Positions 2 through 29,201 of a stretch of DNA of 64,000 bases are shown here, in pieces. The notes beneath the pieces were generated by a model, which searched no databases, had not been told where the DNA came from, and saw only the letters and a list, made by a program, of their open reading frames with translations. The stretch's first letter is position 1. The number at the start of each line of letters is the position of its first letter. The stretch lies in IMG/VR virus record IMGVR_UViG_3300030049_000007; one strand, given 5' to 3'. Origin of the DNA: a virus. Both the position numbers and the translations under genes were made by a program.

Positions 2-1645
2 ATTGATCCATACATTCCTAGTTTGATAGAAGAAAATAAATTTGATGTAGGTTGTGCAGTTGCAGCAATATTAACATCAGATACTAATTGTACTAAAGGT
101 GCAGATAGTGAGCAGACATTAGTTAAACTTTCTTATAATTATATCTATAATGGTAAAAAATATTATAAGAATTTAACTAGTGATACCACTACAACGGGAT
201 CATCTAGTTTACCTACTTATTATAAAAAGTTTTTAGAGACCTATTATTTATCTAATAAATTATATGGTGTATCAACTGCACAGAACGTAAAAGATTTTTT
301 CAATACTGATAGATCATTAAATTTAATTACCGATAATATGGTAAATGATCTTATTGGAGAAAATACTTTTTGGAATATAGCAAATGCAGTAATGCAATAT
401 GGTTTTTATAGTGTTTATGATATTCCTAATCCAACCTATATACAGAAATCTTCTGGCACAACTACCAATACTGAATTAAACTTTTCTAGTGATGGATCTT
501 CAATTCCAGCTAAAATTACACCAACTTCTAAAGTTCAATTTAATGGATTAGCTGAATATATTTTAAAACCAGTTTCGGTTTTAGGTTTACCGTTAAAATG
601 TAATATTATCTGGCCAAATCAAGTTCTTGATGAAACTTTATTTACAGATATGCTTAATGCTCCAACTCGAATATTATTGCAGAAATCAGGATTGCCAGCA
701 GATGATCATTTAAATGTATTATTAACTACTACCAAAATTGCTGGTCCTTATATTCCTAACTGTACAGGATTTTTTAGTTCATTAACCCCTCCTACGCAGC
801 AAGATACTTTAACTAGAGCTTCTACTATGTATTCAGATTATGAAACTGAATATGGAATGAATTATACTGAATTAAGTTTATCATATGCATTTGAAACTTC
901 ATTACTTGAAGATGTAGATAAAGCTAAACAAGCAACGGCAACTAATTTACAGGATGCATCATCACGAATTAATAGTTTTCTTAATTACGAATTTGCTCAG
1001 AGATTCTTTGCATCACGTACTTATTCTATTCAAGTAACTCCAGATGTTGATGTAGTACCAGGACTTCCAGTAATTGTATTAAATCAAAATCAAGAACATA
1101 TTATTTGTTTCTGTACTGGTAAATCTAAACAATGGGATGCTAGAGGAAATAAATCTGTTGGACTTCAAGTAGCTTATCCAAGATATTATTATGAAAATAT
1201 TGATAAATTAGGTAATATAGTTGACCCAACATCTACTAATTTATTAGCTATTCAAGAATTGGAATTATTATTTGGCTCTAAAGCTTTAATTAGAACTGGC
1301 CAATCTGCTAATAGTACTCCAGTCGTTAATATAAATTCAGATACATTAAGAGCAATGATTAATATTTTATATACAGAATATATTTCTGGAAGTATTACAT
1401 ATTCTGATTATATGAGAAATGTTTGTAGTTATGCTAATTGGCTAGAATTATATGGAGCATCTACTTCAGATGAAGTAAATATGCCAGATAGTTATCCAAA
1501 TAAAACAGTATTTGCCTCAACTCCAAATGGAAATGATTTAAGTATTAATACATTTTACGTAAATCAAGTTGAACAGGCTAATTTACCAAATCAAGATATT
1601 ATTCAAAAACATCTAGACTGGATTTCTACAGGACAACGTATATGA
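2..1645 (+). CDS. Virion structural protein, possibly baseplate hub-like; 5' partial
   Basis: Frame is open from the window edge. Thr/Ser/Asn-rich, in structural gene context. C-terminal 'PDVDVVPGLPVIVL' resembles hub-type segments (weak). Confidence 0.45.
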   Translation: MDPYIPSLIEENKFDVGCAVAAILTSDTNCTKGADSEQTLVKLSYNYIYNGKKYYKNLTSDTTTTGSSSLPTYYKKFLETYYLSNKLYGVSTAQNVKDFFNTDRSLNLITDNMVNDLIGENTFWNIANAVMQYGFYSVYDIPNPTYIQKSSGTTTNTELNFSSDGSSIPAKITPTSKVQFNGLAEYILKPVSVLGLPLKCNIIWPNQVLDETLFTDMLNAPTRILLQKSGLPADDHLNVLLTTTKIAGPYIPNCTGFFSSLTPPTQQDTLTRASTMYSDYETEYGMNYTELSLSYAFETSLLEDVDKAKQATATNLQDASSRINSFLNYEFAQRFFASRTYSIQVTPDVDVVPGLPVIVLNQNQEHIICFCTGKSKQWDARGNKSVGLQVAYPRYYYENIDKLGNIVDPTSTNLLAIQELELLFGSKALIRTGQSANSTPVVNINSDTLRAMINILYTEYISGSITYSDYMRNVCSYANWLELYGASTSDEVNMPDSYPNKTVFASTPNGNDLSINTFYVNQVEQANLPNQDIIQKHLDWISTGQRI

Positions 1646-2523
1646 GTCTGATTAAATTAGCAACTAATAAAATGACTGCACTAATGCAAGTTGGAAAATT
1701 AAGTAAAAATGCTATTCATTCTATTAATTGGCGTCCTGCTGAACAAATTGCTGGTGGATTAGAAAGAGGCAATATTAATTTAGCTAAGAGATATGGCACT
1801 ATTATAAATCCAACAAATAGTTATAAATTAGGTAAAACATTTATGCATAGAGTTATAAATAATCAACCTTTAACTTTATTAGAGAAAATTCGATATAAAA
1901 ATCCATTACAATATTTTATTAATGGAATTGAATTAAAATCAAAATATCGTAATAGTCCCGGATCTTCAATGAGAACGGGGTTTATATTTTCCAATCCAAA
2001 AGCCATAAACAAAATTATGACTCATTCAGATGACAGAATTACTAATGCTTTAGTTAATAGACATGAACTACATGAGATGTCTGAAATGAGTCATATAAAG
2101 GATAATTTACCGCGACATGCTTTCTATATAAGTTTAAAAAATAAAGATACAAAAAAAGCTATAGGAATGGGTAGTCATGCAAATCCAACAGTTATAATGA
2201 AAGAAAATAATGATATAGTAAGATTAAAACCATATGAACAAGTAAGACAAAATTTTCTTGGATTAAGACATAGTTCTTTAGAAGATATTGCTTACAATAA
2301 TTTATTTAATCATAATTATGGAGAAACTAAAATATCTTCTAAGAGATTTAAAACTGGAAGAACGGAAGTAGTTAAATATCATCCAGTCGCTACCCCTCCT
2401 AATCCAAAATATGTAAAAGAAATATCTTCTATAGAATGGAATAAATTAATATCAAGACGAAGAGATTATTTAGCATCGGAAGGTGTTAATTTAAATTCCA
2501 ATAAAGTTGTGAGAGAAATATGA
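1642..2523 (+). CDS. Basic protein with MSLIKLA leader; putative internal virion protein with possible metal-binding RHELHE motif
   Basis: ATGA overlap with the upstream gene; leader shared with other ORFs in the window. Confidence 0.55.
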   Translation: MSLIKLATNKMTALMQVGKLSKNAIHSINWRPAEQIAGGLERGNINLAKRYGTIINPTNSYKLGKTFMHRVINNQPLTLLEKIRYKNPLQYFINGIELKSKYRNSPGSSMRTGFIFSNPKAINKIMTHSDDRITNALVNRHELHEMSEMSHIKDNLPRHAFYISLKNKDTKKAIGMGSHANPTVIMKENNDIVRLKPYEQVRQNFLGLRHSSLEDIAYNNLFNHNYGETKISSKRFKTGRTEVVKYHPVATPPNPKYVKEISSIEWNKLISRRRDYLASEGVNLNSNKVVREI

Positions 2524-2870
2524 TAACGTTAACAGCTAATTCTATGGTATATGCAGGTTATGTAGTATCATTATCTTTAGCTGCCGATGCTAGAGTGGAG
2601 TTAACTGATTGGAATAATTATCAATCTGTTTCAAATGTATTGGGTATAGCAACTAATTCAGGTGGTGAAGGTATAGCAATCGTAGTTCAAACAGATGGCA
2701 TATATCAGAACCCCACCTGGAATTTACAACGTGGCTATCCAGTATTTGCATTTTCTATGGGTACAATTACCCAAGATGTATTACCTAAAAATAGCATTCA
2801 AGTTGGAAAAGCTATTTCTTCTAATCAAATTTTAATTAGAATATCTGAATTTATTATGGTGTCTCAATGA
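2520..2870 (+). CDS. Small virion decoration/cement-like protein
   Basis: GIA...G...V...G...GTITQ..P....VGKA pattern shared with neighbouring ORFs; ATGA coupling. Confidence 0.5.
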   Translation: MITLTANSMVYAGYVVSLSLAADARVELTDWNNYQSVSNVLGIATNSGGEGIAIVVQTDGIYQNPTWNLQRGYPVFAFSMGTITQDVLPKNSIQVGKAISSNQILIRISEFIMVSQ

Positions 2871-3736
2871 TTAATAATAGATTCTATGGACGTTTATTTT
2901 ATGATGCGGTAAATGGTAAAATAGATTTATCTAATAATATTAATAATCCTTTATATTATAGTAAAATTCTTGAAGTAAGTTGTTTTACAGCAGTACCAAT
3001 TAATGGATGTATAACAATAGTTAATAATAATGCCAATTTAATTAATTCTAAATATAATAATGATATTACCAATTTAACTATTCCATATATTACAGGTATA
3101 ACATTAACTCCAGGGGATATTGGAGAAATAGTTCCAGTAGCAAATATAATTGGTAATTTATATAAAACAACTCAAATATTACCAGGAAATTATCAAGATC
3201 TATTATATGTTGGTCAAGATGGTATTATTACTAATATTAAACCAACTACAGCTAATGGTGACATTTGGTTAATTGTAGTTGGTATAAAAATAGATGATTA
3301 CTCTTTTGTATTTGAACCATCTATTCCAATTAATTTAGTTAGTAGTTTATTTCCTACTCCAGTTCCTATTGTAATTGGTGATGGTGAGAAAGTTACTTTA
3401 TCTCAAGCTATGCCACAATTAACATGTTTTCGTATAGATGAAACAGGAAGGGCCTTTACAATTACAGCTAATGATGTTAATCTTCCTATAGTTGATGGAA
3501 TCACGTTAGAGTCTGGTGGTATTAATCAATCAATAAATGTAGCCAGATTAAAGAATTATTATTATGATTGTGGTGTTAATTTTACTGAAAGTAATATATA
3601 TTATTTAAATAGTAGTGGAGGTTTAACAACTATTAGACCTACGGATACTAGTTATTTAGTTATTATTGGAAGATCTATACCAAATTCAACTAAATTTATT
3701 TTTGATCCACAAATGCCAATTATGTTATCAAATTAG
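2867..3736 (+). CDS. Virion protein with two copies of the decoration-like domain
   Basis: Internal repeat LYVGQDGIIT..P...FVFEPSIP / YYLNSSGGLTT..P...FIFDPQMP. Confidence 0.5.
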   Translation: MINNRFYGRLFYDAVNGKIDLSNNINNPLYYSKILEVSCFTAVPINGCITIVNNNANLINSKYNNDITNLTIPYITGITLTPGDIGEIVPVANIIGNLYKTTQILPGNYQDLLYVGQDGIITNIKPTTANGDIWLIVVGIKIDDYSFVFEPSIPINLVSSLFPTPVPIVIGDGEKVTLSQAMPQLTCFRIDETGRAFTITANDVNLPIVDGITLESGGINQSINVARLKNYYYDCGVNFTESNIYYLNSSGGLTTIRPTDTSYLVIIGRSIPNSTKFIFDPQMPIMLSN

Positions 3737-3743
3737 AGGATAG

Positions 3744-4283
3744 ATGATGCCAAATAAATTTTTAGCATTAAACACAAATGGTTCTATGCAGGAAGTAGCA
3801 CCAACTACTTTAGGCGGTTCTTCTTATGCTAATCAGATTCCAGTTCTTAACAGTAATGGAAATCTTGATATTTCAATGATGCCAACCGGTATTGGTGCTG
3901 ATACTCAAAGTATAGTAGCAAGTGAATCTATTGCTGCTGGTTCTTTAGTAAATATTTATAATAATGCTGGTACCGTAACTATTAGAAATGCTATAGCTGC
4001 TGATAATACTAAACCCGCTAATGGATTTGTTTTATCTTCTGTAGCTAGTGCGGCTATTGGTTTAGTATATGTACGTGGATTAAATTCGCAAGTTCCATTA
4101 GGAACTTTTGTTGCCGCAAATGTTGGATCTAAAGTTTTTCTATCTCCTACTACTGCTGGTGGAATTACTTTAACTATTCCAACTACCACAGGACAAATTG
4201 TACAGGTTATAGGAACAGTTGATGCTGTAGCAACTTTAGTTACAATTAATTTTACAGAAAATACATTTACGGTCAGAGCATAA
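3744..4283 (+). CDS. Virion decoration/fibre-associated protein
   Basis: GAGGA SD; same domain family as neighbours (VFLSPTTAGGIT..P...IVQVIG). Confidence 0.55.
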   Translation: MMPNKFLALNTNGSMQEVAPTTLGGSSYANQIPVLNSNGNLDISMMPTGIGADTQSIVASESIAAGSLVNIYNNAGTVTIRNAIAADNTKPANGFVLSSVASAAIGLVYVRGLNSQVPLGTFVAANVGSKVFLSPTTAGGITLTIPTTTGQIVQVIGTVDAVATLVTINFTENTFTVRA

Positions 4284-4287
4284 TTGA

Positions 4288-4479
4288 ATGGATAAATTTT
4301 TAGAATTAAATACAGATGGATCCTTTAAAGAGAAAAATCCAGTTGTTATTTCTACTGGATCTGCTAATGCTGGACAAATTCCAGCATTAAATTCTAATGG
4401 ACAATTAGATTCTAGCATTACTGGTTCTAGTAGTTCTAATATATCAAGTATATTAGCTTTTGCAGCAGCACATGGATAA
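4288..4479 (+). CDS. Small paralog of the N-terminus of 3744..4283
   Basis: DKFLELNTDGS...QIPALNSNGQLD versus NKFLALNTNGS...QIPVLNSNGNLD. Confidence 0.6.
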   Translation: MDKFLELNTDGSFKEKNPVVISTGSANAGQIPALNSNGQLDSSITGSSSSNISSILAFAAAHG

Positions 4480-4482
4480 ATT

Positions 4483-5253
4483 ATGATTAGATTAGATAAT
4501 GTAAATAGATCTATCGTTCTATCTTTAGATGGAACAATTACTACTTATCAATTACAAATTATCGTTAATTATTCAGACAATAATGGAACAACTTATACTG
4601 GTGGAACCCAGACTTCTTTATCTAATAATACTACTCAAGTAACTATTTGTAGCGCCCCAACCTCTTCTACTATTAGAGATATTGATAATATTATAATATT
4701 TAATAATGATACAGTAGCTAATTCAATTAATATATTCCTTAATGATAATAGCACACTATATCAACTTGCAGGACCATTGTTACAGACTGGTGAATCTTTT
4801 GTATATACTCATAGTCGTGGTTGGGAAACGGTTGATATTAATGGATGTCTAAAAACTTCGAATGCTCCAATTTCTCAATTACCAAATAACACAACTGGTA
4901 CAACTCAGACTTTAGGAGATTCATCAACTAAATTAGCTACAGATGCTTTTGTGGCAAATGCTATTAGCAATTTTGCTGCAATTACTCAGACAATCCAACA
5001 AGTAACTGTAGATTTAGGTTCTCAACCTAGAACTAGTGGTCATTTTAATATAACTGGTTCAGGATTTTCTCCAATATTAGGACCGGTTATAGTTATGCAG
5101 GCTGCTACAAGACCAAATTCTGTATTATACGATAATATAGAAATGGATGCAATTAATTGTACTGGAATTATAACTTCTTCCACTACTATTCAAGTAAACT
5201 GGAACTCAGATTATACAGTAGCTAATCAATATACTTTTAATTACTTTATTTAA
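4483..5253 (+). CDS. Tail fibre-like structural protein
   Basis: 'TTQTLGDSSTKLATDAFV' fibre repeat motif. Confidence 0.55.
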   Translation: MIRLDNVNRSIVLSLDGTITTYQLQIIVNYSDNNGTTYTGGTQTSLSNNTTQVTICSAPTSSTIRDIDNIIIFNNDTVANSINIFLNDNSTLYQLAGPLLQTGESFVYTHSRGWETVDINGCLKTSNAPISQLPNNTTGTTQTLGDSSTKLATDAFVANAISNFAAITQTIQQVTVDLGSQPRTSGHFNITGSGFSPILGPVIVMQAATRPNSVLYDNIEMDAINCTGIITSSTTIQVNWNSDYTVANQYTFNYFI

Positions 5254-5265
5254 TAAGGATAACAA

Positions 5266-6765
5266 ATGGCAATTATAGAAACTGGTAATAGTACCGCTGG
5301 ATTAGCTAATGTCGATGCAGGCAATAACTTAATGGTAACTACTCCACAAGTTAATTCCACTGTTGGATTGGTTGCTGCAAATCCAGTTCGTGTTGGAGCT
5401 GTTCGTTTCTTTAGCGAAAATGATAGTGGATCATTAACTGGATCTCCATTATTAAATTCTCCTATGACTTCTTTAGAGGATAATTTAGCTGTAGGATTAA
5501 TGACTCCATTATTAGATTATTCCTTTAATGGAACTGCTCAAGATACTAGTATGTGGTATTATGCATTTACCACAATGACAGCAATTCAAGCAGGTGGTTT
5601 TTTAACATTAAATAATGGTAATATTGGAACTGCCGCTACTGGTTGTTATTTATTATCTAAATCTTATTATAATTTAACTGGTAATGCTGGTTTAAGATGT
5701 CAGACTATTGGAACTGTTAATATGGTACCAGTAGCAAATGAAGTTTATTATTGTGGTCTTGGTATTCCAGTTTCTACCACTACTCCACCAACAGATGGAT
5801 GTTGGGTCATGTTAACTTCTGGTGGAGTTTATGGTGTTGTAGCTTATAATGGAACGGTTAATAGTATTGGACCAATGCCTGTTGGTCAGACTAGTGTACT
5901 TCCCGTACCCGGAGTTAATAATATTTGGACTATTCGAATTCATGATAGAATGGTTTATTTCTTTGTTAATGATATATTATTAGGTTCTATTCCAACTCCG
6001 TCAGGTAATGCTTCTCCATTTATGTCTGATGCTTTGCCTGTATTTATTCAACAAATCAATACCGGTACGGTTAGTGGTTCTACATTTTTACAGGTTAAAA
6101 TTGCGGCAATTAATATAGATCAATTAGATAGTAATCAGGGAAGGCCGTTTCCCCATATACAAGCCAAAAAAGGTTTAATGGCTTATCAGGGAACCCAAGG
6201 TGGAACTATGGGTTCTACCGCTTTATATTCTAATAGTTTAGTGGCTGCTGCTGGTGCTGCTATGACCAATACTGCGGTTGGACCAGGAACTGGTTTAGGT
6301 GGACAATTTTCATGGCTTCCGACATTAGCCATTGGAACTGATGGTATTCTTTGCTCTTATCAGGTTCCTACTGGTGGTGTCAACCAAACCCCTCGTACAT
6401 TAATCATAACCGGCGTACGTATTCAATCTATAGTAACTACAGCTCTTACTGGTGGTCCGGTATATGAACTTTATTCGTTAGCTTATGGTCATACAGCGGC
6501 TTCATTGGCTACTGCCGAATCTGCTTCTTTTACTACAGCTAGCACTAAGGCGCCAAGACGTATTGTGCTTGGTTTAGAATCATTTCCAGTTACCTCAGCG
6601 GTTGGTCAGGTTTCTGCCACTAACTGTCCGGTTGTAATGCAATTCATATCTCCAGTAATTGTAAATCCAGGTGAGTTTGTAGCTATTGCTGCTAAGAATA
6701 TTGGAACCGTAACAACTACTGGAGCTATTTTAACGTTAGTAACTTTTGATGCATATTGGGAGTAA
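5266..6765 (+). CDS. Virion structural protein, beta-rich (possible lectin/concanavalin-like domain)
   Basis: AAGGA SD; Gly/Thr-rich, 499 aa, structural cluster. Confidence 0.5.
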   Translation: MAIIETGNSTAGLANVDAGNNLMVTTPQVNSTVGLVAANPVRVGAVRFFSENDSGSLTGSPLLNSPMTSLEDNLAVGLMTPLLDYSFNGTAQDTSMWYYAFTTMTAIQAGGFLTLNNGNIGTAATGCYLLSKSYYNLTGNAGLRCQTIGTVNMVPVANEVYYCGLGIPVSTTTPPTDGCWVMLTSGGVYGVVAYNGTVNSIGPMPVGQTSVLPVPGVNNIWTIRIHDRMVYFFVNDILLGSIPTPSGNASPFMSDALPVFIQQINTGTVSGSTFLQVKIAAINIDQLDSNQGRPFPHIQAKKGLMAYQGTQGGTMGSTALYSNSLVAAAGAAMTNTAVGPGTGLGGQFSWLPTLAIGTDGILCSYQVPTGGVNQTPRTLIITGVRIQSIVTTALTGGPVYELYSLAYGHTAASLATAESASFTTASTKAPRRIVLGLESFPVTSAVGQVSATNCPVVMQFISPVIVNPGEFVAIAAKNIGTVTTTGAILTLVTFDAYWE

Positions 6766-6767
6766 TA

Positions 6768-6920
6768 ATGAAAATTGTTAAGTTAGCAGCTTTTGGTTTT
6801 ACTAAACTCAAAAACGTAGAAGCGGTAAAGGGTGTAATAGGTAAAAAAATAGAACCTTCTAAGATAATTCCCTTAGCAGATAAACTTAAATTTGCTATGA
6901 AAGATATTGGAAAGTGTTAG
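6768..6920 (+). CDS. 50-aa basic protein with MKIVKLAA leader (not in ORF track)
   Basis: Translated by hand: MKIVKLAAFGFTKLKNVEAVKGVIGKKIEPSKIIPLADKLKFAMKDIGKC; GGGAG upstream. Confidence 0.65.
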   Translation: MKIVKLAAFGFTKLKNVEAVKGVIGKKIEPSKIIPLADKLKFAMKDIGKC

Positions 6921-7001
6921 AAGACGACCAATATCCAGTTCATGAATATTATGATTTTGGGGAAGATGAAGAGTTTTTGATTATTTTGAGAATATTAATA
7001 G

Positions 7002-8653: not shown

Positions 8654-8796
8654 TGGATTCTTTTCAAGTAGATATGAGTAAGTTTTATCAGGATCTTTTG
8701 GATTCTCAAAAGCCAGCAGATCCTGAATACATAAAAGCTTTATGGAAAAATATTTGGGATTTGTATTCATATTCGGATGAAAAGAAATGGGTTTAG
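8653..8796 (+). CDS. 47-aa hypothetical protein (not in ORF track)
   Basis: TAATG coupling; MDSFQVDMSKFYQDLL... Confidence 0.4.
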   Translation: MDSFQVDMSKFYQDLLDSQKPADPEYIKALWKNIWDLYSYSDEKKWV

Positions 8797-9164
8797 TTAA
8801 ATTATCAGCATCATGGGAATTAACCCAATCTCAGATTCCAATTTGGAATACTGAAGTAGTTGATTTGGGTCGTGCCGCTGATGCTCCACAAGCTAATATA
8901 GAACGAACTAATGTAGATTTACGTCAAAAGAGTATTTGGCCTAAAAAGGATTTAATAATGAAGAAAGGAATAATTAAATTAGCTGCAAGTTCTTTTGGAG
9001 ATATAAAACCTTCTCATAAAGGAATGTTACATAAAGCTTTAAATATTCCTGAAGATGAAAAGATTCCAGAAGAAAAACTATTAGAAGCTAAAAATTCAAA
9101 AGACGCCCATGTGAGGATTATGGCTAATTACGCTTTAAATGCTAGGTATAGAGGAAAGAAATAA
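8787..9164 (+). CDS. Protein with MGLVKLSA leader and a second internal MKKGIIKLAA start at 8958
   Basis: Leader motif occurs twice; AAGGA SD before 8958. Confidence 0.6.
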   Translation: MGLVKLSASWELTQSQIPIWNTEVVDLGRAADAPQANIERTNVDLRQKSIWPKKDLIMKKGIIKLAASSFGDIKPSHKGMLHKALNIPEDEKIPEEKLLEAKNSKDAHVRIMANYALNARYRGKK

Positions 9165-9610
9165 TGACCACTCAGATCACTCCACATTTTACAAAGGAAT
9201 GTTTAGAGTTTAGCGAAACTGCTAATGAACATCATATTGATAATAGTATTCCAGATAGTCTTTATCCTAAAGCTCAACGTCTTTGCCAGGAAATGGAAGA
9301 TGTGCGAACTCTTTTGAGTGAGTATTATAAAGAAGATACTCCAATTTTTACAAATTCGGGATATCGTTGTCCTGAAGTCAATACTTTAACTCATGGTCAG
9401 CCCACTTCTCAACATATGGCTCTTGAGGCTATGGATTTTCATACATCTCATCCTCCTATTGATGATTGGAATATTATTAAAGCATCTAAACTTCCATATG
9501 ATCAACTTATTTTAGAGCATGATAGTGCTGGTCATATTTGGACTCATTATTCAGTATCTAGACCAAATCAGAATGCTCGTCATATGGCATTCACGTTAGA
9601 AAAGAAATGA
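9164..9610 (+). CDS. Endolysin, peptidase M15A (Zn D-Ala-D-Ala carboxypeptidase-like)
   Basis: ITPHFT, SGYRCPEVN, SQHM..AMDF and WTHYS motifs. Confidence 0.85.
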   Translation: MTTQITPHFTKECLEFSETANEHHIDNSIPDSLYPKAQRLCQEMEDVRTLLSEYYKEDTPIFTNSGYRCPEVNTLTHGQPTSQHMALEAMDFHTSHPPIDDWNIIKASKLPYDQLILEHDSAGHIWTHYSVSRPNQNARHMAFTLEKK

Positions 9611-10136: not shown

Positions 10137-10286
10137 ATGAGTTTAATTAAGTTAGCAGCTACTATAGCAAATAAAGAAGCTCTTAAGAAGACTAAGAAAT
10201 ACCTTCTTAATGGACTTGCTCTTACTGGTGTAGGAACTGGTTTGTATGGAGATGCTTTATTGCTTAAGAAGATGCTAAAGAAATAA
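10137..10286 (+). CDS. 49-aa basic protein with MSLIKLAA leader and Gly-rich hydrophobic segment (not in ORF track)
   Basis: Translated by hand: MSLIKLAATIANKEALKKTKKYLLNGLALTGVGTGLYGDALLLKKMLKK. Confidence 0.65.
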   Translation: MSLIKLAATIANKEALKKTKKYLLNGLALTGVGTGLYGDALLLKKMLKK

Positions 10287-21658: not shown

Positions 21659-21661
21659 AAT

Positions 21662-21736: not shown

Positions 21737-21747
21737 ATTTTATGAAA

Positions 21748-22120: not shown

Positions 22121-22210
22121 TGGCGGAAAGCGAGAGATTCGAACTCCCGGTGAGCGTAAACCCACGATAGTTTTCAAGACTATTGCCTTAAACCACTCAG
22201 CCAGCTTTCC
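22121..22210 (-). tRNA. tRNA-Ser(TGA)
   Basis: atagt-CT TGA AA-actat; long variable arm; G73; CCA. Confidence 0.9.
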
Positions 22211-22215
22211 AGTTA

Positions 22216-22650: not shown

Positions 22651-23164
22651 TGTAATCTCCTTTCTGTTTTTCCAATCTATAAAAAACTTCTTCGAGTAAA
22701 ATAGGTTTAAAATCAGTCCATTCTACACAAACATTTAAATATCTATTATCCATGATTTTATTACTATGCAAGTGACCATGAATATTTCCACCACACCATC
22801 TAGCTAAACTATCAGGATGAATGGGGATATGGGATAATAAATATTTATCAAGTTTATGTGATCCACGAATATCTTTAAAATATTTAGCATATTCTTTTAA
22901 ATCAAAGATATCATGATTACCACGAATTAAAACTTTTCTACCATTTAATTTTTCAAAAATAACTAGATCTCTTTTATGAAAAACAACATCACCTAAATGA
23001 TAGATTTTATCTTCAGGTTTCACTATATCATTCCAATTTTGAACTAAAGCTTCATCCATATCTTTTACATTATTCCAGGGGCGAACTTTAATTCCATCTT
23101 CTTTTAAAAAATTACAAATATTCTCTTGACCAAAATGAGTATCGCTTATTAAATAGACTTTCAT
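22637..23164 (-). CDS. Calcineurin-like metallophosphoesterase
   Basis: SDTHFG, HLGD, GNHD, HGHLH. Confidence 0.9.
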   Translation of the reverse strand: MKVYLISDTHFGQENICNFLKEDGIKVRPWNNVKDMDEALVQNWNDIVKPEDKIYHLGDVVFHKRDLVIFEKLNGRKVLIRGNHDIFDLKEYAKYFKDIRGSHKLDKYLLSHIPIHPDSLARWCGGNIHGHLHSNKIMDNRYLNVCVEWTDFKPILLEEVFYRLEKQKGDYNARS

Positions 23165-23694
23165 AAATACCTATTTTTCTGTTTAGCCCAATATCCTCGT
23201 GGTGGTTTTTCTATTCCATATTTTTTACACCACTTACCAATCATCCTACCACTTACATTATAAAATTTACCTATTTCTTCAGAAGGAATTTTCCAAATGA
23301 TTTTTTCTAAATCTTCTTTAGATGCAATGTCTTTTTCTTGATCTATTCTATAACATTCCACAGAACAATATTGCTTTTCAATAGAATCAGGTTGGAATTC
23401 TTTTTTACAATATCTACAAATTTTTAATTCTAAATAAACTGGATGATGAAGTTTACAATGTTCAGATGATGTTAATATTTCTAAATTTTCTGGATCATTA
23501 TTTAATCTATTTTCGTCTATATGATGTACATGTTCAAAGTCTTCTAAATATCTATTTAATTTATTTTCCATAACTAATCTATGAAAATAAACAGATTTTG
23601 AATTTTTCCATGCATTTGGATGTGTTGGATAATATACCGTTATGTAACCTAAAGGATGAAGTGTTTGTGTAAATGATTTTAAATCATGTAACAT
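23161..23694 (-). CDS. HNH homing endonuclease
   Basis: HRLVME...VHHIDENRLNN..NL; zinc finger and C-terminal HTH (PPRGYW). Confidence 0.9.
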   Translation of the reverse strand: MLHDLKSFTQTLHPLGYITVYYPTHPNAWKNSKSVYFHRLVMENKLNRYLEDFEHVHHIDENRLNNDPENLEILTSSEHCKLHHPVYLELKICRYCKKEFQPDSIEKQYCSVECYRIDQEKDIASKEDLEKIIWKIPSEEIGKFYNVSGRMIGKWCKKYGIEKPPRGYWAKQKNRYL

Positions 23695-23710
23695 ATTTTC
23701 CTTTATAAAT

Positions 23711-23798
23711 TGGAGCCAAGAACAGGATTCGAACCTGCGATGGATTATTAGTCGGCAGCTTACAAGGCTGTTCCCTTCGACCGCTTGGGCATCTTGGC
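23711..23798 (-). tRNA. tRNA with TGT anticodon (Thr), class II-like D-arm and enlarged variable region
   Basis: cagc-CT TGT AA-gctg; GCC..GGC-U-CCA acceptor; 16-nt variable region. Confidence 0.75.
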
Positions 23799-24162
23799 AA
23801 ATGGCAGTTTATGGATATCTGCCAACCAACTACTTTCATTTTTGTATAGCAAACAGGAGTTTTACCACTCACCATATATAGTAAGTCTTATCGGAGGAAC
23901 TGGAAATATCTTTGCGATATCGATGGCTTACAATCGATAACGTTTAAGTTTATCTCATCGTTATAGTCATAACGCTCATCCCCCGTTAACGCGACGGTTA
24001 GTAATATGAGTCGTATAGGGTTGGATACCTATTTTCCCGCATTCCGCTAAGACAGTCCTAAAACTGTCCTAGTCAGACGATTAATTATTTCATTATAAAA
24101 CCAAGTAGCATCACTACTCAGATTATCAATTAGAAGTTTTCAGCCTCGCAAGGCATGTTGTA

Positions 24163-24190
24163 ATTGTAACACACGGTCGAAACCTGTCAA
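24163..24190 (-). promoter_or_regulatory. Sigma70-type promoter at the head of the tRNA array
   Basis: TTGACA-N16-TACAAT with extended TG. Confidence 0.75.
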
Positions 24191-24281
24191 CAAGATATTT
24201 AAAGAATATGTCGTGGCTCGCTCCAAATCACGATTATTAAAAGTTTTATCTTTTAATAAAGGTGATTTGATATAATAATCT

Positions 24282-24300
24282 CTCCATATATATTATAACA
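24282..24300 (-). promoter_or_regulatory. Promoter motif TGTTATAATATATATGGAG
   Basis: Identical to the copy at 41821-41839. Confidence 0.7.
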
Positions 24301-24342
24301 AAAAAATGGTGTTTTTTGCGAACATGTGTTATCATAGAACTT

Positions 24343-25014
24343 ATGTCGAACGAACTGATTCTACAATACCAGAAAGATCCAACGAATAAAGAAATCGAAC
24401 AGAAATTACTCGATATGCATGGATCTTATATTAAAGCCAACATTAATAAATGGGCCGGGATAGTCCCTGATATAATCATTCATTCATATGGTAAGAAATA
24501 TGCGTTAGATGCTTTCAAGACTTATAATCCAATTAAAGGATCCATTAACACCCATCTATATAACAATATCTCCCAACTCTCCAGACTAATCTATCAACAC
24601 CAAAATGCAATTCGCTTACCAGAGCAACAGATACAGTTAATCGGAAAAGTTAATGCATCTAGAGATATTCTAACTGATGAATTGGGCCGTGAGCCAACCA
24701 CAGAAGAAATAGCTGATAATTTATCTTTACCAAAAGCACATATAGCTAAAGTAATTAGAAATCAAAGAGCAGATTTTCTAAATGATTCTGATACAGATAT
24801 GCAACATGCTTATGGTGATCATGATAATGAGATAGGAAATAAGATATTTCAATTTAGACAGACTCTGAATGATACAAGAAAAGATCAATTTGATAGTTTT
24901 ACAGGATATAACAACGTAACTCCATTAAGTCCTCAACAATTTGGTTTAAAATTTAAACTTAAACCTTACGAAGTATCAAGACTTAAAACATTATTTGCTA
25001 AAGGGTTAAAATAA
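24343..25014 (+). CDS. Sigma70-family (FliA/SigB-like) phage sigma factor
   Basis: Region 2-like AFKTYNP..G; IRLP; region 3 ELGREPTTEEIADNL; region 4-like C-terminus; probable leaderless ATG at 24343. Confidence 0.8.
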   Translation: MSNELILQYQKDPTNKEIEQKLLDMHGSYIKANINKWAGIVPDIIIHSYGKKYALDAFKTYNPIKGSINTHLYNNISQLSRLIYQHQNAIRLPEQQIQLIGKVNASRDILTDELGREPTTEEIADNLSLPKAHIAKVIRNQRADFLNDSDTDMQHAYGDHDNEIGNKIFQFRQTLNDTRKDQFDSFTGYNNVTPLSPQQFGLKFKLKPYEVSRLKTLFAKGLK

Positions 25015-25394
25015 TGGCAACTCAAATTACTCGTACCCAGATATTAACTGATAGAGTTATTACTGTTACTATTAGCTTAACAGCTAAAGATGCTACAGAT
25101 GATGCGTTGGTTAAAAAGTTTGGTGATATTCAAATTATGCCTAGTGGATATTTTAATGATCCAGCAGATTCTACCTATCCTCAGTTTATGGTAAACGCGG
25201 GAACAGAACCTATCGATTTTTTTACAGCAGGATCTATCGTTGCTACATTCGCTAATGATACATTAGCTCTTGCAGATCTTCAGAGACGTGCTTTATTATG
25301 GGGTAACGCTATCCAGTTAACTATACAGAATGCCATGATAGCTTTACGTGCTTTAGTTGATTCTACTACCTCTACTAGTGTGGTGACAATATGA
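25014..25394 (+). CDS. Hypothetical virion protein
   Basis: TAATG coupling to the sigma gene; structural-type composition. Confidence 0.5.
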   Translation: MATQITRTQILTDRVITVTISLTAKDATDDALVKKFGDIQIMPSGYFNDPADSTYPQFMVNAGTEPIDFFTAGSIVATFANDTLALADLQRRALLWGNAIQLTIQNAMIALRALVDSTTSTSVVTI

Positions 25395-25732
25395 GTTTGG
25401 TTAAATTAGCTTGGGATTCTAAAATGGATGAATTTGAAAATATTTTTAAATCAAAAACTCTAAAACAAATGCAACCATATAAATATTTTGAAGATAAACA
25501 TAAACAAAAAGCTAAAGAATGGATTAAATACTATCAGTTAGAACCTAATGATCCATTAACACATACCGTAGGAAAAGAACAAAGAAAATGGACTAATGCA
25601 GTCTATGATAGATATAATAAATATAAATCTCATATTAGAAATAGAAATATGAAACGTGGATTAGCTGGACTTGCTGCCGTTACTGTTTTGGGCGGAATTG
25701 TAAAAAACAGTTTAAATAAAGATAAAAAATAA
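25391..25732 (+). CDS. Basic protein with MSLVKLA leader and C-terminal TM segment
   Basis: Leader motif; GLAGLAAVTVLGGIV. Confidence 0.65.
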   Translation: MSLVKLAWDSKMDEFENIFKSKTLKQMQPYKYFEDKHKQKAKEWIKYYQLEPNDPLTHTVGKEQRKWTNAVYDRYNKYKSHIRNRNMKRGLAGLAAVTVLGGIVKNSLNKDKK

Positions 25733-25736
25733 CAAT

Positions 25737-26156
25737 ATGGCCTATTTAAATTATTTAGCTCAGATTAAAACATTCCTAACTAACTGGTCATCTTGTATGG
25801 CTGGTAATGGAAGTACTAATACTTTTGATTATAAAATTAGTACGGCAAAAGAATTAAATAATTTGAAGAATGCAGTTACTGTAAATGATATGGTTCAGAT
25901 GGGTAATGCCTATTATGATCAGGTTGGAATAGGTAGAGCAATGACTGAATTATATAAAAAACCTAAAGATTATTTTGCTGATTTTGTAGCATTTAATACT
26001 ACTCAATTAGCTGATTTAACTAATTTAGGTAACGAAGTAACAAATTCATATACTAATATTTCAGATACTAGTTTAAGTAATAAGTCAATTAAATCTATTT
26101 CAGCTAAATTACAATTAAAACTTTCCTTAATAAGTTCACCATATGACAACAATTAA
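25737..26156 (+). CDS. Hypothetical virion/baseplate protein
   Basis: Context upstream of the baseplate genes. Confidence 0.45.
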   Translation: MAYLNYLAQIKTFLTNWSSCMAGNGSTNTFDYKISTAKELNNLKNAVTVNDMVQMGNAYYDQVGIGRAMTELYKKPKDYFADFVAFNTTQLADLTNLGNEVTNSYTNISDTSLSNKSIKSISAKLQLKLSLISSPYDNN

Positions 26157-26568
26157 TTTAGATATTACAAATAGAGATTTATACGGAAATGTGACTTTTT
26201 TATTAAAGTCTGCTAGAGTTTATGGTATCGAAAATGTAATTCAGAAAGTAACTACTTGTTTGTTATCATCCAAGAAAACTACTTATTTTGGTAATATATA
26301 TGGCAGCGATGCATTACAGGCTGGTAAATATAATTTTAATGCAGATGGAGTTACAGATTTTAAATTACAAATTACAGATGATTTAGTAAATATTAAAAGT
26401 TCTATTCAAACTGATGAAACTACATATAACATTCCCGTAGCAGATAGATTAAAAGATATAGCTATTCAAGACGTAGTATTTGATAATACAACTTTAACAG
26501 TAAGTTTATCATTGTTAATTTCTACTAATTCTGCTTCCACTATTATTCAATTGCCGGTGAAATCGTGA
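26143..26568 (+). CDS. Baseplate wedge, gp25-like
   Basis: Size 141 aa; GIE.VIQKV...LL pattern; directly before the J-like gene. Confidence 0.55.
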   Translation: MTTINLDITNRDLYGNVTFLLKSARVYGIENVIQKVTTCLLSSKKTTYFGNIYGSDALQAGKYNFNADGVTDFKLQITDDLVNIKSSIQTDETTYNIPVADRLKDIAIQDVVFDNTTLTVSLSLLISTNSASTIIQLPVKS

Positions 26569-28250
26569 ATTCAACAGATCTGATTAAATTTTCAACTGAT
26601 GTATTACAAGCAGATTCTAATTATGCTAATGTAGATTTATCTACATCAGGTGCATTTTACAATTTAACCATTCTACCATTTTCGGTTTTAACAAAGCCAT
26701 TAAGAGATTTGATTAATTCAAATATGAACGCATTAGCATTAGGAACTATGACTAGTGCTCAATTAGATAGTTGGGCTACTAATTTATTTCTTACACGTAG
26801 AACTAATAATTTAATGACCGTAGCTATTACAATTTATTTAACAAATAGTACAGAAACGATAGAACCTTTAATGGTCTATACTACTGATACTTTTACTACA
26901 AATCAGAATAAGATTTTTTATCCAATTCAAGATTATATTTTTATATTTAGTTCATTACCGGTAGATTCAACAGGTAATTATAGATATGCTACCATTATTG
27001 CATCTTCAACTCAGGATTATACAGTTACAGCAGCTAATACAATTAAATCAACTTCTTTAACTCATCCATCACTTTCTTATGTTACAAATGCGGCAGCCTC
27101 TTCAACTCCAATTGAGGCTCAAACAGATACAGACTTTATAACAAGTATTCAGTCTGCAATATCCGCACGAAATAATACTACCGCAAATGCAATTTACACT
27201 AATTTAGAAGCTGCATATACTTCAATAACAGATATTTTAGCTATTGGATATAATGATCCTGAAATGCAGAGAGATATCGCTGTTGCAGCGCGTGATTGGT
27301 CGGGTCACTTTGGTGGAATGACAGATATTTACGTTCGCACTCCACTGACTGCTGTGACGGCTACGGTTACGGGCACTAGAAATTCTACCAACAATGGCTA
27401 CACTTTTATTCTTCGTAAATACGCAGGTTATGATTGGGATTCTATTGATGACTCATCACCCACCCCTCTCTCATTAACCCCCTGGATTGCTGTAACTTCT
27501 ACTAATCCATTACCTTCAATGCCTATAGTATTATTTGACTGGGCAGATACAACAATAACTAACACAACTATAACTACAGCGACCAATGGATTACCAAATG
27601 TATTAGTTGAAGTAATGCCAGATCCAGAATTAAATGCATATGGTAAAAATTATCGTTATTCAATATATGAAAATCTTAGAATAACGGTTTATACAAACAC
27701 AGCAGTAAATTCTTCTGAAACAATTGTATTAGCCTATTCTACTTTATCAAATATTGAAGATATGCAAACATATATGAACTCTTCAGTTGCTAGAGTTTTA
27801 ACTTCTAATAATTTAGTAAAATCTTTCCTTCCAGTTGAGATAAAGGATTTGACTATTGTTTATGATTCTAGTTATACTGTAGATACGACAACGTGGGCAA
27901 CTACTCTTGCTGATTTAATTAATAGCTGGTCATCAACTCAACCAATTAGATTATCTACATTATTAACCGATTTCGTAGCTCCAGTTCGTTTGGATGAAGT
28001 GTGGAGTGATACAACTTCTTCATTACCATATACTTTTGATAGTAATGGCAATATTACTGGAACTAATGTTTCAACATCTTTTCCTTCTTACATAACTATG
28101 TCATTAAATAATATAGATGGTTCTTTTCAATATTATATTTCTACTAGACAGATTTATCCAATGGTCAAAACTGGATTATCTTCAACTTATAGAACTTGTC
28201 GTTATTTTGTAGATTCTTCAAATATTCATTTTGTAGCGGGGACATGGTAA
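26565..28250 (+). CDS. Baseplate J-like wedge protein
   Basis: LD.WATN..LTR, E.QTD..F, IGYNDPEMQRD, GG..DIYV motifs. Confidence 0.7.
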   Translation: MNSTDLIKFSTDVLQADSNYANVDLSTSGAFYNLTILPFSVLTKPLRDLINSNMNALALGTMTSAQLDSWATNLFLTRRTNNLMTVAITIYLTNSTETIEPLMVYTTDTFTTNQNKIFYPIQDYIFIFSSLPVDSTGNYRYATIIASSTQDYTVTAANTIKSTSLTHPSLSYVTNAAASSTPIEAQTDTDFITSIQSAISARNNTTANAIYTNLEAAYTSITDILAIGYNDPEMQRDIAVAARDWSGHFGGMTDIYVRTPLTAVTATVTGTRNSTNNGYTFILRKYAGYDWDSIDDSSPTPLSLTPWIAVTSTNPLPSMPIVLFDWADTTITNTTITTATNGLPNVLVEVMPDPELNAYGKNYRYSIYENLRITVYTNTAVNSSETIVLAYSTLSNIEDMQTYMNSSVARVLTSNNLVKSFLPVEIKDLTIVYDSSYTVDTTTWATTLADLINSWSSTQPIRLSTLLTDFVAPVRLDEVWSDTTSSLPYTFDSNGNITGTNVSTSFPSYITMSLNNIDGSFQYYISTRQIYPMVKTGLSSTYRTCRYFVDSSNIHFVAGTW

Positions 28251-28251
28251 T

Positions 28252-28899
28252 ATGAAAGCTTCTGAATTTTTAATGGCAAAAGCATTAGAACATGATGATT
28301 TTCAATTAACTAAAATTGCTCAGGATTTATATGGTACTGAGGAAGATATTGATTATATCGATAAAGAAGCTGGAATTGCATCAGGTTTATTAGCTGCTGG
28401 TTCGCAATTACTTAAAAGTAACGTAATTAGAAATGCTGCTATTGGTGCAGGGGTAGGTAGTTTAACTGGCGCTGCTTCTGCACAGTCAGGTAATAGATTG
28501 GCCGGAGCATTTAAAGGTGGATTAATTGGTGCTGTTACTGGTGGTATTGGAAGTGCTAGTACTAATATTTTAAAGACTATGAAAACTCCAGGAGTTACGT
28601 TCAATAGGGCTTTAGCTCAAGAAGGTAATAATATTACCGCAGTAGGAACTAAGGCTAGTAGAGCATTCGATATTGGTCGTTCAAATAGAACTTTCTTAAA
28701 TAGACCTACTCCAATGGGAACTTCAATTCCAGAATCTGCTCCAAAAGTTATATTACCAACTCCAACTAAAGATGAGGCAATAAAGGCTGGATTTGGTAGT
28801 CCTATCGAACCTCCATTACCCGCTGCTGGAGCAACTACTTTACAACAGCCAGCTACTAAAAATTCTATCTTTAAACCAAAACCATTACTGAGAAGTTAA
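28252..28899 (+). CDS. Glycine-zipper membrane-active protein, putative ejected virion protein
   Basis: Acidic N-terminus ending DKEAG; AAIGAGVGSLTGAA and GGLIGAVTGGIG segments. Confidence 0.55.
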   Translation: MKASEFLMAKALEHDDFQLTKIAQDLYGTEEDIDYIDKEAGIASGLLAAGSQLLKSNVIRNAAIGAGVGSLTGAASAQSGNRLAGAFKGGLIGAVTGGIGSASTNILKTMKTPGVTFNRALAQEGNNITAVGTKASRAFDIGRSNRTFLNRPTPMGTSIPESAPKVILPTPTKDEAIKAGFGSPIEPPLPAAGATTLQQPATKNSIFKPKPLLRS

Positions 28900-28901
28900 A
28901 T

Positions 28902-29201
28902 ATGTCATTAGTTAAGTTAGCAGCAATGCCGCTTTTAGTAATAAATAATTCGGATCCTAATGCTGGATCTTCTAAAACGTTTAATGGCAAAAATGTTGCT
29001 GCTGCTGCGGTTGGTGGAACAACAGGTTTTGCATTAAGCGATGCCATTGAACATACTAAAGGTTTTGATGAAACTAAATTATTACATAGATATGGTAAAA
29101 GAATGGGTTCTATTGTTGGTGGTTTTGCTGGTGCTGCTGGAACTTATACTCTTTTACATAAAAAGCAGAAAGAACAAGAACCTAAATTCTATATGCTTTA
29201 A
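28902..29201 (+). CDS. Glycine-zipper protein with MSLVKLAA leader
   Basis: Leader motif; two Gly/Ala hydrophobic segments. Confidence 0.65.
   Translation: MSLVKLAAMPLLVINNSDPNAGSSKTFNGKNVAAAAVGGTTGFALSDAIEHTKGFDETKLLHRYGKRMGSIVGGFAGAAGTYTLLHKKQKEQEPKFYML

What the first reader, a model, noticed from the sequence alone, without database searches (positions are those of the whole stretch)
1642..29201. Shared N-terminal 'MSL[IV]KLA' leader on unrelated late proteins: candidate capsid-targeting/maturation signal system
Seen: six ORFs with no other similarity start with the same 7-8 residues: 1642 MSLIKLAT, 6768 MKIVKLAA, 8787 MGLVKLSA, 10137 MSLIKLAA, 25391 MSLVKLAW, 28902 MSLVKLAA. A seventh copy is internal (8958, MKKGIIKLAA). 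Two of these ORFs are below the ORF-track cutoff. All sit singly between structural genes on the late strand. Most are basic and three have Gly/Ala hydrophobic segments. I saw no such leader on any early-strand gene. Synonymous codons vary (AAA/AAG, AGT/TCA, CTG/TTA/TTG), which favours selection at protein level. Established: T4 internal proteins share a short N-terminal capsid-targeting sequence removed by the prohead protease. Inference: this is an independent address tag that loads a variable cargo of effectors or membrane-active peptides into the head, with cleavage after K-x-A.
Basis: partly seen in the sequence, partly recalled or inferred. Interest (0 to 1): 0.85.

Follow-up and report, generated by a model that had tools for sequence, protein, structure and literature searches.

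The report
Clip-off head-loading tag on phage proteins
An uncultured large phage and its relatives start 6-10% of their genes, almost all encoding small basic proteins, with the same 6-7-residue peptide, which matches the motif its capsid protease probably cuts; the peptide is most likely a tag that loads varied cargo, including an anti-defence protein, into the virus head, but nobody has measured loading or cutting.

Summary
Six + strand ORFs start M-x-[LI]-[IV]-K-L-[AS], and a seventh copy is internal. About 0.08 such starts are expected by chance, and none occur on the other strand.

Relatives carry the same tag on 12 (G001) and 17 (G003) genes. It is MSLIKLA in close relatives and MIIKLA in a distant one. 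Conservation follows codon positions, so selection acts on the peptide.

Of 45 tagged proteins, 44 have pI above 9 and 21 have glycine-zipper segments. One is a Tad3 anti-Thoeris inhibitor and one an SNF2 helicase; in both the tag is an N-terminal add-on.

The motif phi-x-K-phi-A also occurs inside head proteins, 69 times against 11.9 expected:
- It flanks the folded domain of a T4 gp21/herpesvirus-fold prohead protease. The downstream site is kept in about 150 of 156 family members.
- It lies about 20 residues into the capsid protein.
- It recurs 4-6 times in a scaffold-like protein.

Tagged genes lie directly beside the protease gene in all seven head modules from low-GC relatives.

My reading is a T4-like capsid-targeting tag with a different sequence and a cut after alanine (confidence 0.62). 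Loading and cutting are inferred, not shown. The scan has noted analogous tags in other phages.

The parts
1642..2523 (+). Tagged cargo gene, 293 aa, MSLIKLAT..., pI 10.1, an orphan protein lying between baseplate-region genes
   Evidence: No Pfam, PHROG or Atlas relative.
6768..6920 (+). Tagged cargo gene, 50 aa, MKIVKLAA..., pI 10.0. The ATG at 6768 follows a GGGAG ribosome-binding site.
8787..9164 (+). Tagged cargo gene, 125 aa, MGLVKLSA..., holding a second tag module in frame
   Evidence: Its second half is homologous to a stand-alone 64-aa tagged gene of G001 (43% identity, 1e-5).
8958..9164 (+). Internal tag module MKKGIIKLAA... (68 aa). It is either an internal cut site of a fused two-cargo protein or a separate start behind an AAGGA site.
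10137..10286 (+). Tagged cargo gene, 49 aa, MSLIKLAA..., with one hydrophobic Gly-rich segment and a Lys-rich tail, pI 10.1
25391..25732 (+). Tagged cargo gene, 113 aa, MSLVKLAW..., with a C-terminal Gly/Ala hydrophobic segment, pI 9.9. It lies in the sigma-to-RNA-polymerase gene block.
28902..29201 (+). Tagged cargo gene, 99 aa, MSLVKLAA..., with two glycine-zipper-like segments, directly upstream of the RNA polymerase gene. Orthologues in L001 and G001 keep the tag, one of them with a GTG start.

Best explanation
The peptide M-(S)-[LI]-[IV]-K-[LI]-A is a clip-off capsid-targeting tag. Late in infection, tagged proteins are drawn into the assembling prohead because the tag imitates the phi-x-K-phi-A motif that the head proteins of this phage lineage present to the prohead serine protease. 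That protease is made with a roughly 290-residue helical C-terminal part attached to it. After the shell closes, the protease would cut after the alanine, as it would at its own domain borders, at the capsid protein's N-terminus and at the 4-6 sites of the scaffold-like protein. This would free the mature cargo inside the head, and the cargo would then leave with the DNA at the next infection.

Shown here:
- The tag is shared, conserved, under protein-level selection and restricted to one strand.
- The tag and the head-protein motif are the same.
- The protease has the capsid-protease fold.
- The cargo has a distinct composition (basic, often glycine-zipper).

Inferred: binding, cutting, packaging and ejection.
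For: 1. Conservation. G001 has 12 tagged genes and G003 has 17, against 0.13-0.15 expected. In G003 all 17 lie among the 97 - strand genes and none among the 169 + strand genes.
2. Protein-level selection. Information content is high at codon positions 1-2 and near zero at the third positions of Leu1 and Ala. Both Ser codon families are used. The flanks are not conserved.
3. Same motif in head proteins. There are 69 internal phi-x-K-phi-[AS] sites in head-module proteins against 11.9 expected from per-protein shuffles (P about 1e-29). The rest of the genomes have 67 against 48.
4. Site positions. In the protease, K26-x-A28 lies in the disordered N-terminus and L231-x-K233-[VI]-A235-S lies exactly where the folded domain ends (pLDDT falls from 89 to 56). 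K233 is kept in 151 and A235 in 149 of 156 family members. In the capsid protein, K17 and A19 are invariant. The scaffold-like protein has 4-6 sites aligned in columns.
5. Protease fold. The best structural matches are T4 gp21 (Z 9.9, rmsd 3.0 A, 126 residues), VZV protease (Z 8.9) and HCMV protease (Z 6.7), ahead of unrelated rows at 5.1. There are 177 BFVD matches, many of them named prohead protease.
6. Gene position. In each of the seven head modules from low-GC relatives (G003, L026-L030, L039), 1-3 tagged genes lie directly upstream of the protease gene, after the portal and scaffold-like genes. The higher-GC G002 and the cultured phages D69 and Arash have none there.
7. Cargo. 44 of 45 tagged proteins have pI above 9, against 25% of other proteins (P = 4e-23). 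21 of 45 are glycine-zipper-like, against 9% (P = 7e-10). This matches the small basic internal proteins of T4 (PMC9026906).
8. The tag is an add-on to known domains. In the Tad3 protein the Pfam profile starts at residue 10 (E = 1.2e-35). The SNF2 helicase aligns to Arash gp217 from residue 22 (E = 1e-85), and gp217 is abundant in purified Arash virions (PMC10585845).
Against: There are no proteomic, N-terminal or packaging data for any tagged protein. The window holds no head module and no whole genome is held for it, so the protease evidence comes from relatives with 49-80% RNA polymerase identity and from small contigs. The cultured relatives Arash and D69, and the higher-GC relative G002, have the internal sites but no MSLIKLA-type cargo, so the tag is not needed for this head type. 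Arash appears to carry the helicase in its virions without any tag, although that preparation listed 116 proteins and its authors warn of carry-over. In T4, targeting and cutting map to different residues of a 10-residue tag, so a 6-7-residue peptide doing both jobs is an assumption. Orthologous sites are not independent, so the pooled P value is overstated; single genomes still show the effect (G003 15 against 2.3, G002 8 against 1.2).
Confidence: 0.62

Rival explanations
1. The tag is only a protease-removable cap and not an address. The proteins enter the head for other reasons, for example because basic proteins ride in with the DNA or bind the scaffold. Removing the 6-7 residues merely activates them or unmasks their N-terminus.
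For: Nearly all cargo is strongly basic, which alone could favour association with DNA. Tad3 uses its N-terminal helices to bind ThsB (PMC13728456), so a free N-terminus may matter. Arash virions hold the untagged helicase orthologue.
Against: Internal proteins of known phages enter the prohead before the DNA does. A cap of 6 residues is unlikely to inactivate glycine-zipper proteins. If no sorting were involved, the motif would not need to sit at the extreme N-terminus of so many unrelated proteins.
Confidence: 0.14
2. phi-x-K-phi-A is a docking motif that is never cut. It binds the inner capsid surface, the portal or the scaffold. The tag tethers the cargo permanently and the repeats in the scaffold-like protein are binding sites.
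For: The motif is repeated 4-6 times at regular spacing in the scaffold-like protein and 2-6 times in the portal N-terminal part. This also fits a multivalent binding motif. Arash proteomics reports 85-100% coverage of gp220-gp224.
Against: Two nearly invariant copies lie in flexible segments exactly at the two ends of the protease's folded domain. That is where T4 gp21 and herpesvirus proteases cut themselves. Alanine at P1, often followed by serine, matches assemblin-type sites.
Confidence: 0.12
3. The tag is an N-terminal degradation or expression signal, such as a ClpX-type N-degron (polar-phi-phi-basic-phi, recalled from memory) or an AT-rich start region that boosts translation. It would tune the level of toxic membrane-active proteins.
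For: S-L-I-K-L fits the recalled ClpX N-motif pattern. The codons are AT-rich. Many cargo proteins look membrane-active.
Against: MIIKLA in G003 lacks the polar residue. Conservation follows codon positions and uses both Ser codon families, so it is not a nucleotide signal. This reading does not explain why the motif is enriched inside head proteins, flanks the protease domain, or why tagged genes abut the protease gene.
Confidence: 0.06
4. The tag is a membrane-targeting or lysis-related signal. The tagged proteins would be holin-like, spanin-like or exclusion proteins sent to the envelope.
For: Two window copies flank the endolysin gene at 9164-9610. Several cargo proteins have a single hydrophobic segment and a charged tail.
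Against: The tag is too short for a signal peptide, has no long hydrophobic core and no lipobox cysteine. Soluble cytoplasmic proteins (Tad3, SNF2 helicase) carry it. Twelve to seventeen lysis proteins per genome is implausible.
Confidence: 0.04

Closest known systems
Phage T4 capsid targeting sequence (CTS) of internal proteins IPI, IPII, IPIII and Alt, removed by prohead protease gp21
   Same: Both are short N-terminal peptides shared by otherwise unrelated, mostly small basic proteins, and both end in the motif the head protease cuts. The cargo includes anti-defence proteins. The protease has the same fold (Z 9.9 to gp21). In T4, 10 residues suffice to package foreign proteins (PMC9026906).
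   Different: The tag sequences are unrelated (MSLIKLA against MKTYQEFIAE). The tag here is 6-7 residues rather than 10. The inferred cut is after Ala in phi-x-K-phi-A rather than after Glu in L/I-x-E. Far more genes are tagged (6-10% of genes). Half the cargo is glycine-zipper-like. The phage lineage is not T4-like: the capsid protein is about 305 aa and the phage encodes its own fused beta-beta' RNA polymerase and sigma factor.
Herpesvirus assemblin precursor (protease-linker-scaffold) with release (R) and maturation (M) sites
   Same: Both have an N-terminal protease domain followed by a long C-terminal part. Both have a conserved site ending in Ala, often followed by Ser, right at the end of the catalytic domain: here L-x-K-V-A-S at 231-236, in PrV YLQA-T at the R-site and VQA-S at the M-site (PMC4498786). 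The folds match (VZV Z 8.9, HCMV Z 6.7).
   Different: This is a bacterial virus. Lys is at P3. No cleavage has been demonstrated. Herpesviruses are not known to use the site as an N-terminal address on accessory cargo.
phiKZ/SPN3US-type giant phages: N-terminal propeptides on ejection proteins removed by gp175/gp245
   Same: Many head-internal proteins, including enzymes, carry N-terminal propeptides with repeated protease motifs, and the cargo is ejected into the cell (PMC10052503).
   Different: Those propeptides are long and varied and are cut at [S/A/G]-x-E (motif recalled from memory). Here one near-identical 6-7-residue tag is used.
Phage P1 DarB N-terminal packaging signal
   Same: It is an N-terminal signal that sends an anti-restriction helicase-type protein into the capsid, and it is sufficient to package a reporter (PMC9024508).
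   Different: The P1 signal needs more than 9 and at most 30 residues, and the paper describes it only for DarB.
Salmonella phage Arash (gp220 scaffold-like, gp222 protease, gp226 capsid protein) and Vibrio phage D69
   Same: These are the closest cultured members of the protease family, and their head modules show the same K-phi-A-rich pattern. Arash virions contain many enzymes, including RNA polymerase, sigma and the helicase gp217.
   Different: I found no MSLIKLA-type tag in the 100 kb of Arash or the 19 kb of D69 that I read. D69 has only one 59-aa MDKVAKLK... glycine-zipper protein.

Membership tests
T4-type capsid targeting sequence system (functional class) | A short N-terminal peptide shared by otherwise unrelated proteins | tested here: met
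   Six genes in the window and 45 across relatives carry it. No similarity was found downstream of the tag.
T4-type capsid targeting sequence system (functional class) | The tag ends in the motif used at the prohead protease's processing sites | tested here: met
   K-phi-A flanks the protease domain, marks the capsid protein N-terminus and repeats in the scaffold-like protein. It is enriched 5.8-fold in head modules. Only identity of motif is shown; cleavage is not.
T4-type capsid targeting sequence system (functional class) | The phage encodes an assemblin-fold prohead serine protease | tested here: met
   This was tested in relatives, not in the window. PHROG 18299 matches at 1.8e-6. The AF2 model has pLDDT 83.7. 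Structural match to T4 gp21 is Z 9.9. H110 and S163 are invariant.
T4-type capsid targeting sequence system (functional class) | The tag is removed and is sufficient to package a foreign protein | not testable with these tools
   This needs virion mass spectrometry and reporter fusions.
T4 CTS sequence family (MKTYQEFIAE, L/I-x-E) | Sequence similarity to the T4 tag, with Glu at P1 | tested here: not met
   The tag is M-S-L-I-K-L-A with Ala at P1. It therefore works like the T4 tag but is not a member of the T4 tag family.
Herpesvirus-type protease-scaffold precursor | An N-terminal protease domain, a C-terminal extension and an Ala-P1 release site at the end of the domain | tested here: inconclusive
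   The architecture and a conserved L-x-K-V-A-S at the fold boundary are present. The scaffold role of the C-terminal part and autocleavage are untested.
Tad3 anti-Thoeris inhibitor (PF25185), for the G003 cargo at 52496-52960 | Pfam match above the gathering score | tested here: met
   122.3 bits against a cutoff of 27, E = 1.2e-35. Residues 10-135 match profile positions 4-118.
Glycine-zipper domains (PF13441, PF13436, PF05433) | Pfam match above the gathering score | tested here: inconclusive
   The best score is 28.8 bits against a cutoff of 28.9. Several cargo proteins score 22-25 bits. By a composition test, 21 of 45 are glycine-zipper-like.
Sec or lipoprotein signal peptide | A hydrophobic core of about 10 or more residues with an A-x-A or lipobox cleavage site | tested here: not met
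   The tag is 6-7 residues, many cargo proteins continue with polar or charged sequence, and there is no Cys.
ClpX N-terminal recognition motif (recalled from memory) | polar-phi-phi-basic-phi at the N-terminus | tested here: inconclusive
   MSLIKL fits the pattern but MIIKLA of G003 does not.

The most novel reading that the evidence does not exclude
A portable tag of only six or seven residues is enough to load any protein into this phage's head. The lineage would use it to deliver a changeable, ready-made first-strike kit with the DNA. The kit would include an inhibitor of the Thoeris sensor (Tad3), an SNF2 helicase and a dozen basic glycine-zipper proteins that act on the host membrane. 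Anti-defence would then act before any phage gene is expressed.
Probability: 0.35. Interest if true: 0.8.

Novelty: new variant of a known kind. Interest (0 to 1): 0.62.

Why it matters
If the reading is right, the T4 trick of tagging a protein, loading it into the head and clipping the tag has arisen again with a different tag and a herpesvirus-like cut after alanine. It would have done so in a very large, unstudied phage family: 3,411 protease clusters at 50% identity with no Pfam model.

The reading would explain what many of the small orphan genes of these phages are. It would predict that an anti-Thoeris inhibitor is delivered pre-made. It would also offer a very short tag for packaging proteins into phage heads.

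The inferred protease specificity can be tested now in two cultured phages, Arash and D69.

Tried and rejected
- Megablast of window 1-25000 against cultured phages found no match.
- tblastn of the conserved 561-aa and 579-aa proteins found no match.
- Pfam and PHROGs gave nothing for the window's tagged proteins or most of their neighbours.
- The ESM Atlas gave no usable relative for the 293-aa cargo.
- No whole genome is held for the window.
- The search for related loci with the two-sequence protease alignment found nothing, and the 93-sequence alignment had no stretch conserved enough to search with. A DNA pattern for HFFHHHKNK worked instead.
- The first AF2 model, from a 6-sequence alignment, was unusable (pLDDT 43).
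- A PDB sequence search with the protease profile gave no real hit.
- Foldseek against the PDB gave nothing at E <= 0.001. VIA-align and BFVD gave the fold.
- I looked for a variant tag in G002 (46% GC) and found none.
- I looked for the tag in Arash and D69 and found none.
- A paralogue-family origin is rejected because there is no similarity beyond the tag.
- A nucleotide-level signal is rejected because of the codon-periodic pattern.
Full report
**Observation.** Translating the stated coordinates gives six + strand ORFs that begin M-[SKG]-[LI]-[IV]-K-L-[AS] (1642, 6768, 8787, 10137, 25391, 28902). There is also an in-frame internal copy at 8958. In all six frames of the 64 kb, the core [LIV][IV]KL[AS] occurs 11 times, and seven of these are the copies above. 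Using the internal rate of the motif as background, 0.08 N-terminal copies are expected in 96 called genes. My gene caller scored five (P = 3e-8); the sixth, 10137, was displaced by an overlapping ORF. None of the 49 - strand genes has the motif. The six proteins share nothing else at BLASTP E <= 1e-4, and all have pI 9.6-10.1.

**What the window is.** It is part of a divergent, AT-rich (about 32% GC) tailed phage.
- It has 13 tRNA genes at 16.9-23.8 kb.
- It has tail-fibre-like genes at 11-16.4 kb and an endolysin at 9164-9610.
- It has a sigma-like gene at 24316-25014.
- It has a 1995-aa fused beta-beta' RNA polymerase at 29211-35198.
- It has an intein-bearing ribonucleotide reductase at 38-40.6 kb.

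No cultured phage matches at the DNA level. Earlier notes of this scan call the genome a 157-kb phage and name Salmonella phage Arash and Vibrio phage D69 as the nearest cultured RNA-polymerase relatives. I used that as a lead and checked it below.

**The tag is conserved in relatives.** Four IMG/VR contigs share the RNA polymerase at 80, 70, 57 and 49% identity. I read three of them whole.

| Contig | Size | Tagged genes | Expected | Tag form |
|---|---|---|---|---|
| G001 | 113 kb | 12 | 0.15 | MSLIKLA, one with a GTG start |
| G003 | 169 kb, complete | 17 | 0.13 | MIIKLA, plus MIVKLA, MLVKIA, MIAKLA, MLGKLA |
| G002 | 96 kb, 46% GC | 0 | 0.09 | none |

In G003 all 17 tagged genes are among the 97 - strand genes and none among the 169 + strand genes. 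An unbiased count of N-terminal 4-mers puts IKLA/LIKL/IIKL far above every other word in G001 and G003. An exact-pattern scan of IMG/VR for the commonest nucleotide form found only 11 stretches, one with five tagged genes in tandem. The tagged clade is therefore small in that collection.

**Selection acts on the peptide.** I aligned 45 tag regions on the Lys codon. Information content is high at first and second codon positions and close to zero at the third positions of the first Leu and of Ala. Upstream there is only a weak purine-rich ribosome-binding signal, and nothing is conserved downstream. Ser is encoded by AGT, AGC, TCA and TCT; Leu by TTA, TTG and CTN; Ala by all four codons.

**The cargo.**
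- Of 45 tagged proteins, 44 have pI above 9, against 25% of the other proteins (Fisher P = 4e-23).
- The median length is 102 aa.
- 21 have glycine-rich zipper-like segments, against 9% of other proteins (P = 7e-10). Pfam glycine-zipper models score just below threshold.
- The G003 gene at 52496-52960 is a Tad3 anti-Thoeris inhibitor (PF25185, E = 1.2e-35). The profile begins at residue 10, so the tag is an addition. Tad3 binds the ThsB sensor through its N-terminal helices (PMC13728456).
- The G001 gene at 95246-96730 is an SNF2 helicase. It aligns with Arash gp217 from its residue 22 onward (34% identity, E = 1e-85). The tag plus a Lys/Glu-rich linker is again an addition.
- gp217 is abundant in purified Arash virions. 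So are the RNA polymerase subunits and sigma, although the authors caution that abundant proteins may carry over (PMC10585845).

**The link to the head protease.** G003's head module reads, in order:
- terminase;
- a 517-aa portal-position protein;
- a 177-aa acidic protein;
- two tagged genes;
- a 522-aa protein with a head-maturation-protease match (phrog_18299);
- four small genes;
- a 303-aa major head protein.

A DNA pattern for the protease's HFFHHHKNK stretch and a profile scan recovered six more head modules (L026-L030, L039). Together with G003, each of these seven low-GC modules has one to three tagged genes directly upstream of the protease gene.

The motif phi-x-K-phi-[AS] is not confined to N-termini. 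Inside head-module proteins it occurs 69 times against 11.9 expected from shuffling each protein. In all other proteins it occurs 67 times against 48. Orthologous sites are not independent, but single genomes show the same effect (G003 15 against 2.3; G002 8 against 1.2).

| Protein | Sites |
|---|---|
| Acidic scaffold-like protein | 4-6 copies, aligned in columns while the flanks vary |
| Portal-position protein | 2-6 copies in its N-terminal part |
| Capsid protein | Invariant K17 and A19 (MEK[VT]A), about 20 residues in |
| Protease | K26-x-A28, L231-x-K233-[VI]-A235 and a third site near 263 |

A search of 1.84 billion representatives found 3,411 clusters of this protease family. Among the 150 best representatives plus the six query sequences, K233 is kept in 151 of 156, A235 in 149, and Ser follows in 81. 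With a 93-sequence alignment, AlphaFold2 gives a confident model (pLDDT 83.7). Residues 1-29 are disordered, and confidence collapses right after residue 233, so the two best-conserved sites flank the folded domain. The fold's best solved matches are T4 gp21 (Z 9.9, rmsd 3.0 A, 126 residues), VZV protease (Z 8.9) and HCMV protease (Z 6.7), above unrelated rows at 5.1. BFVD gives 177 matches, many named prohead protease.

T4 gp21 is thought to trim both of its own ends at sites matching its logo (PMC9026906). Herpesvirus proteases release themselves from a C-terminal scaffold part at a site ending in Ala (PMC4498786). The arrangement here is the same in outline.

**Cultured relatives.** tblastn finds the protease family in Vibrio phage D69 (32.6% identity over 99% of the query), in one Salmonella phage record and, in part, in other large phages. 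I located the Arash copy, gp222, by reading that genome directly. D69 and Arash show the same pattern of K-phi-A sites in the scaffold-like protein (six each), the protease and nearby head proteins. Neither has MSLIKLA-type cargo in the parts I read. The motif is therefore old in this protease family, and placing it at the very N-terminus of accessory proteins is a development of the low-GC clade.

**Mechanism.** The best-supported reading has two steps.
- The tag presents the protease's, or the head core's, recognition motif at a free N-terminus. This draws the protein into the prohead.
- The tag is then cut off after Ala. This leaves small basic proteins, membrane-type glycine-zipper proteins and a few enzymes or inhibitors inside the head for delivery with the DNA.

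What is shown: motif identity, gene position, protease fold and cargo composition. What is inferred: binding, cutting, packaging and ejection.

The rivals keep some weight: a cap without address function, a docking motif that is never cut, a degradation or expression signal, and membrane or lysis targeting. The last two do not explain the head-protein enrichment or the sites flanking the protease domain.

**Comparison and novelty.** The system works like the T4 capsid targeting sequence and uses a protease of the same fold. It is not a member of the T4 tag family:
- the tag sequence is unrelated and shorter;
- the inferred P1 residue is Ala, as in herpesviruses, rather than Glu;
- many more genes are tagged.

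In five paper searches, none aimed at this motif, I met no description of this tag, this protease family's specificity or a tagged Tad3. The scan itself has noted analogous shared leaders in at least eight other phage genomes, mostly T4-like with Glu-ending tags. One AT-rich phage has MKF(I/T)KLIK(A/S), which may be the same kind. I did not test those. I rate this a new variant of a known kind.

Noticed in passing
window:38137-40643: A ribonucleotide reductase gene is split over two ORFs. The second ORF carries an intein splicing domain (Pfam PF14890, 1.5e-12). The orthologue in L001 is one much longer ORF (L001 20002-23463).
   Followed up: no
window:16900-23800: A block of 13 tRNA genes lies on the - strand in a region of higher GC (38-42%) with few credible ORFs.
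   Followed up: no
L024:14081-15649 (G003 154081-155649) and 3,411 related clusters: This is a very large prohead protease family with no Pfam model. Its members are annotated as hypothetical or structural proteins in the cultured phages D69 and Arash (gp222). Residues H110 and S163, a Cys-x2-Cys and an FFDIS stretch are invariant or nearly so. The N-terminus M-x-K-L is also nearly invariant.
   Followed up: partly
L046:1471-2648: Five consecutive small MSLIKLA-tagged genes (61-96 aa) lie in tandem on a 6.4-kb viral contig. Three of them have glycine-zipper segments.
   Followed up: no
L010:15246-16730 (G001 95246-96730): The tagged SNF2 helicase has a (KE)n-rich linker, KKEKEKEKEKLKEQ, between the tag and the helicase core. 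The G003 orthologue (130975-132414) starts MMIKKFGL and lacks a clean tag.
   Followed up: partly
L033:2503-2682 (Vibrio phage D69): A 59-aa protein starts MDKVAKLK and continues with a glycine zipper. It may be a minimal form of the tag in a cultured phage.
   Followed up: no
window:9164-10286: The endolysin is followed by a 57-aa ORF with an N-terminal hydrophobic segment and a 112-aa ORF. This group is bracketed by two tagged genes (8787 and 10137), so a lysis role for those two cannot be excluded.
   Followed up: no
G003 147307-148896 (L024:7307-8896): A 529-aa HNH/homing-endonuclease-like gene (phrog_559, 5.5e-64) sits at the edge of the head module. L030 has a small ORF with a transposase-like look between the terminase and portal genes.
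   Followed up: no
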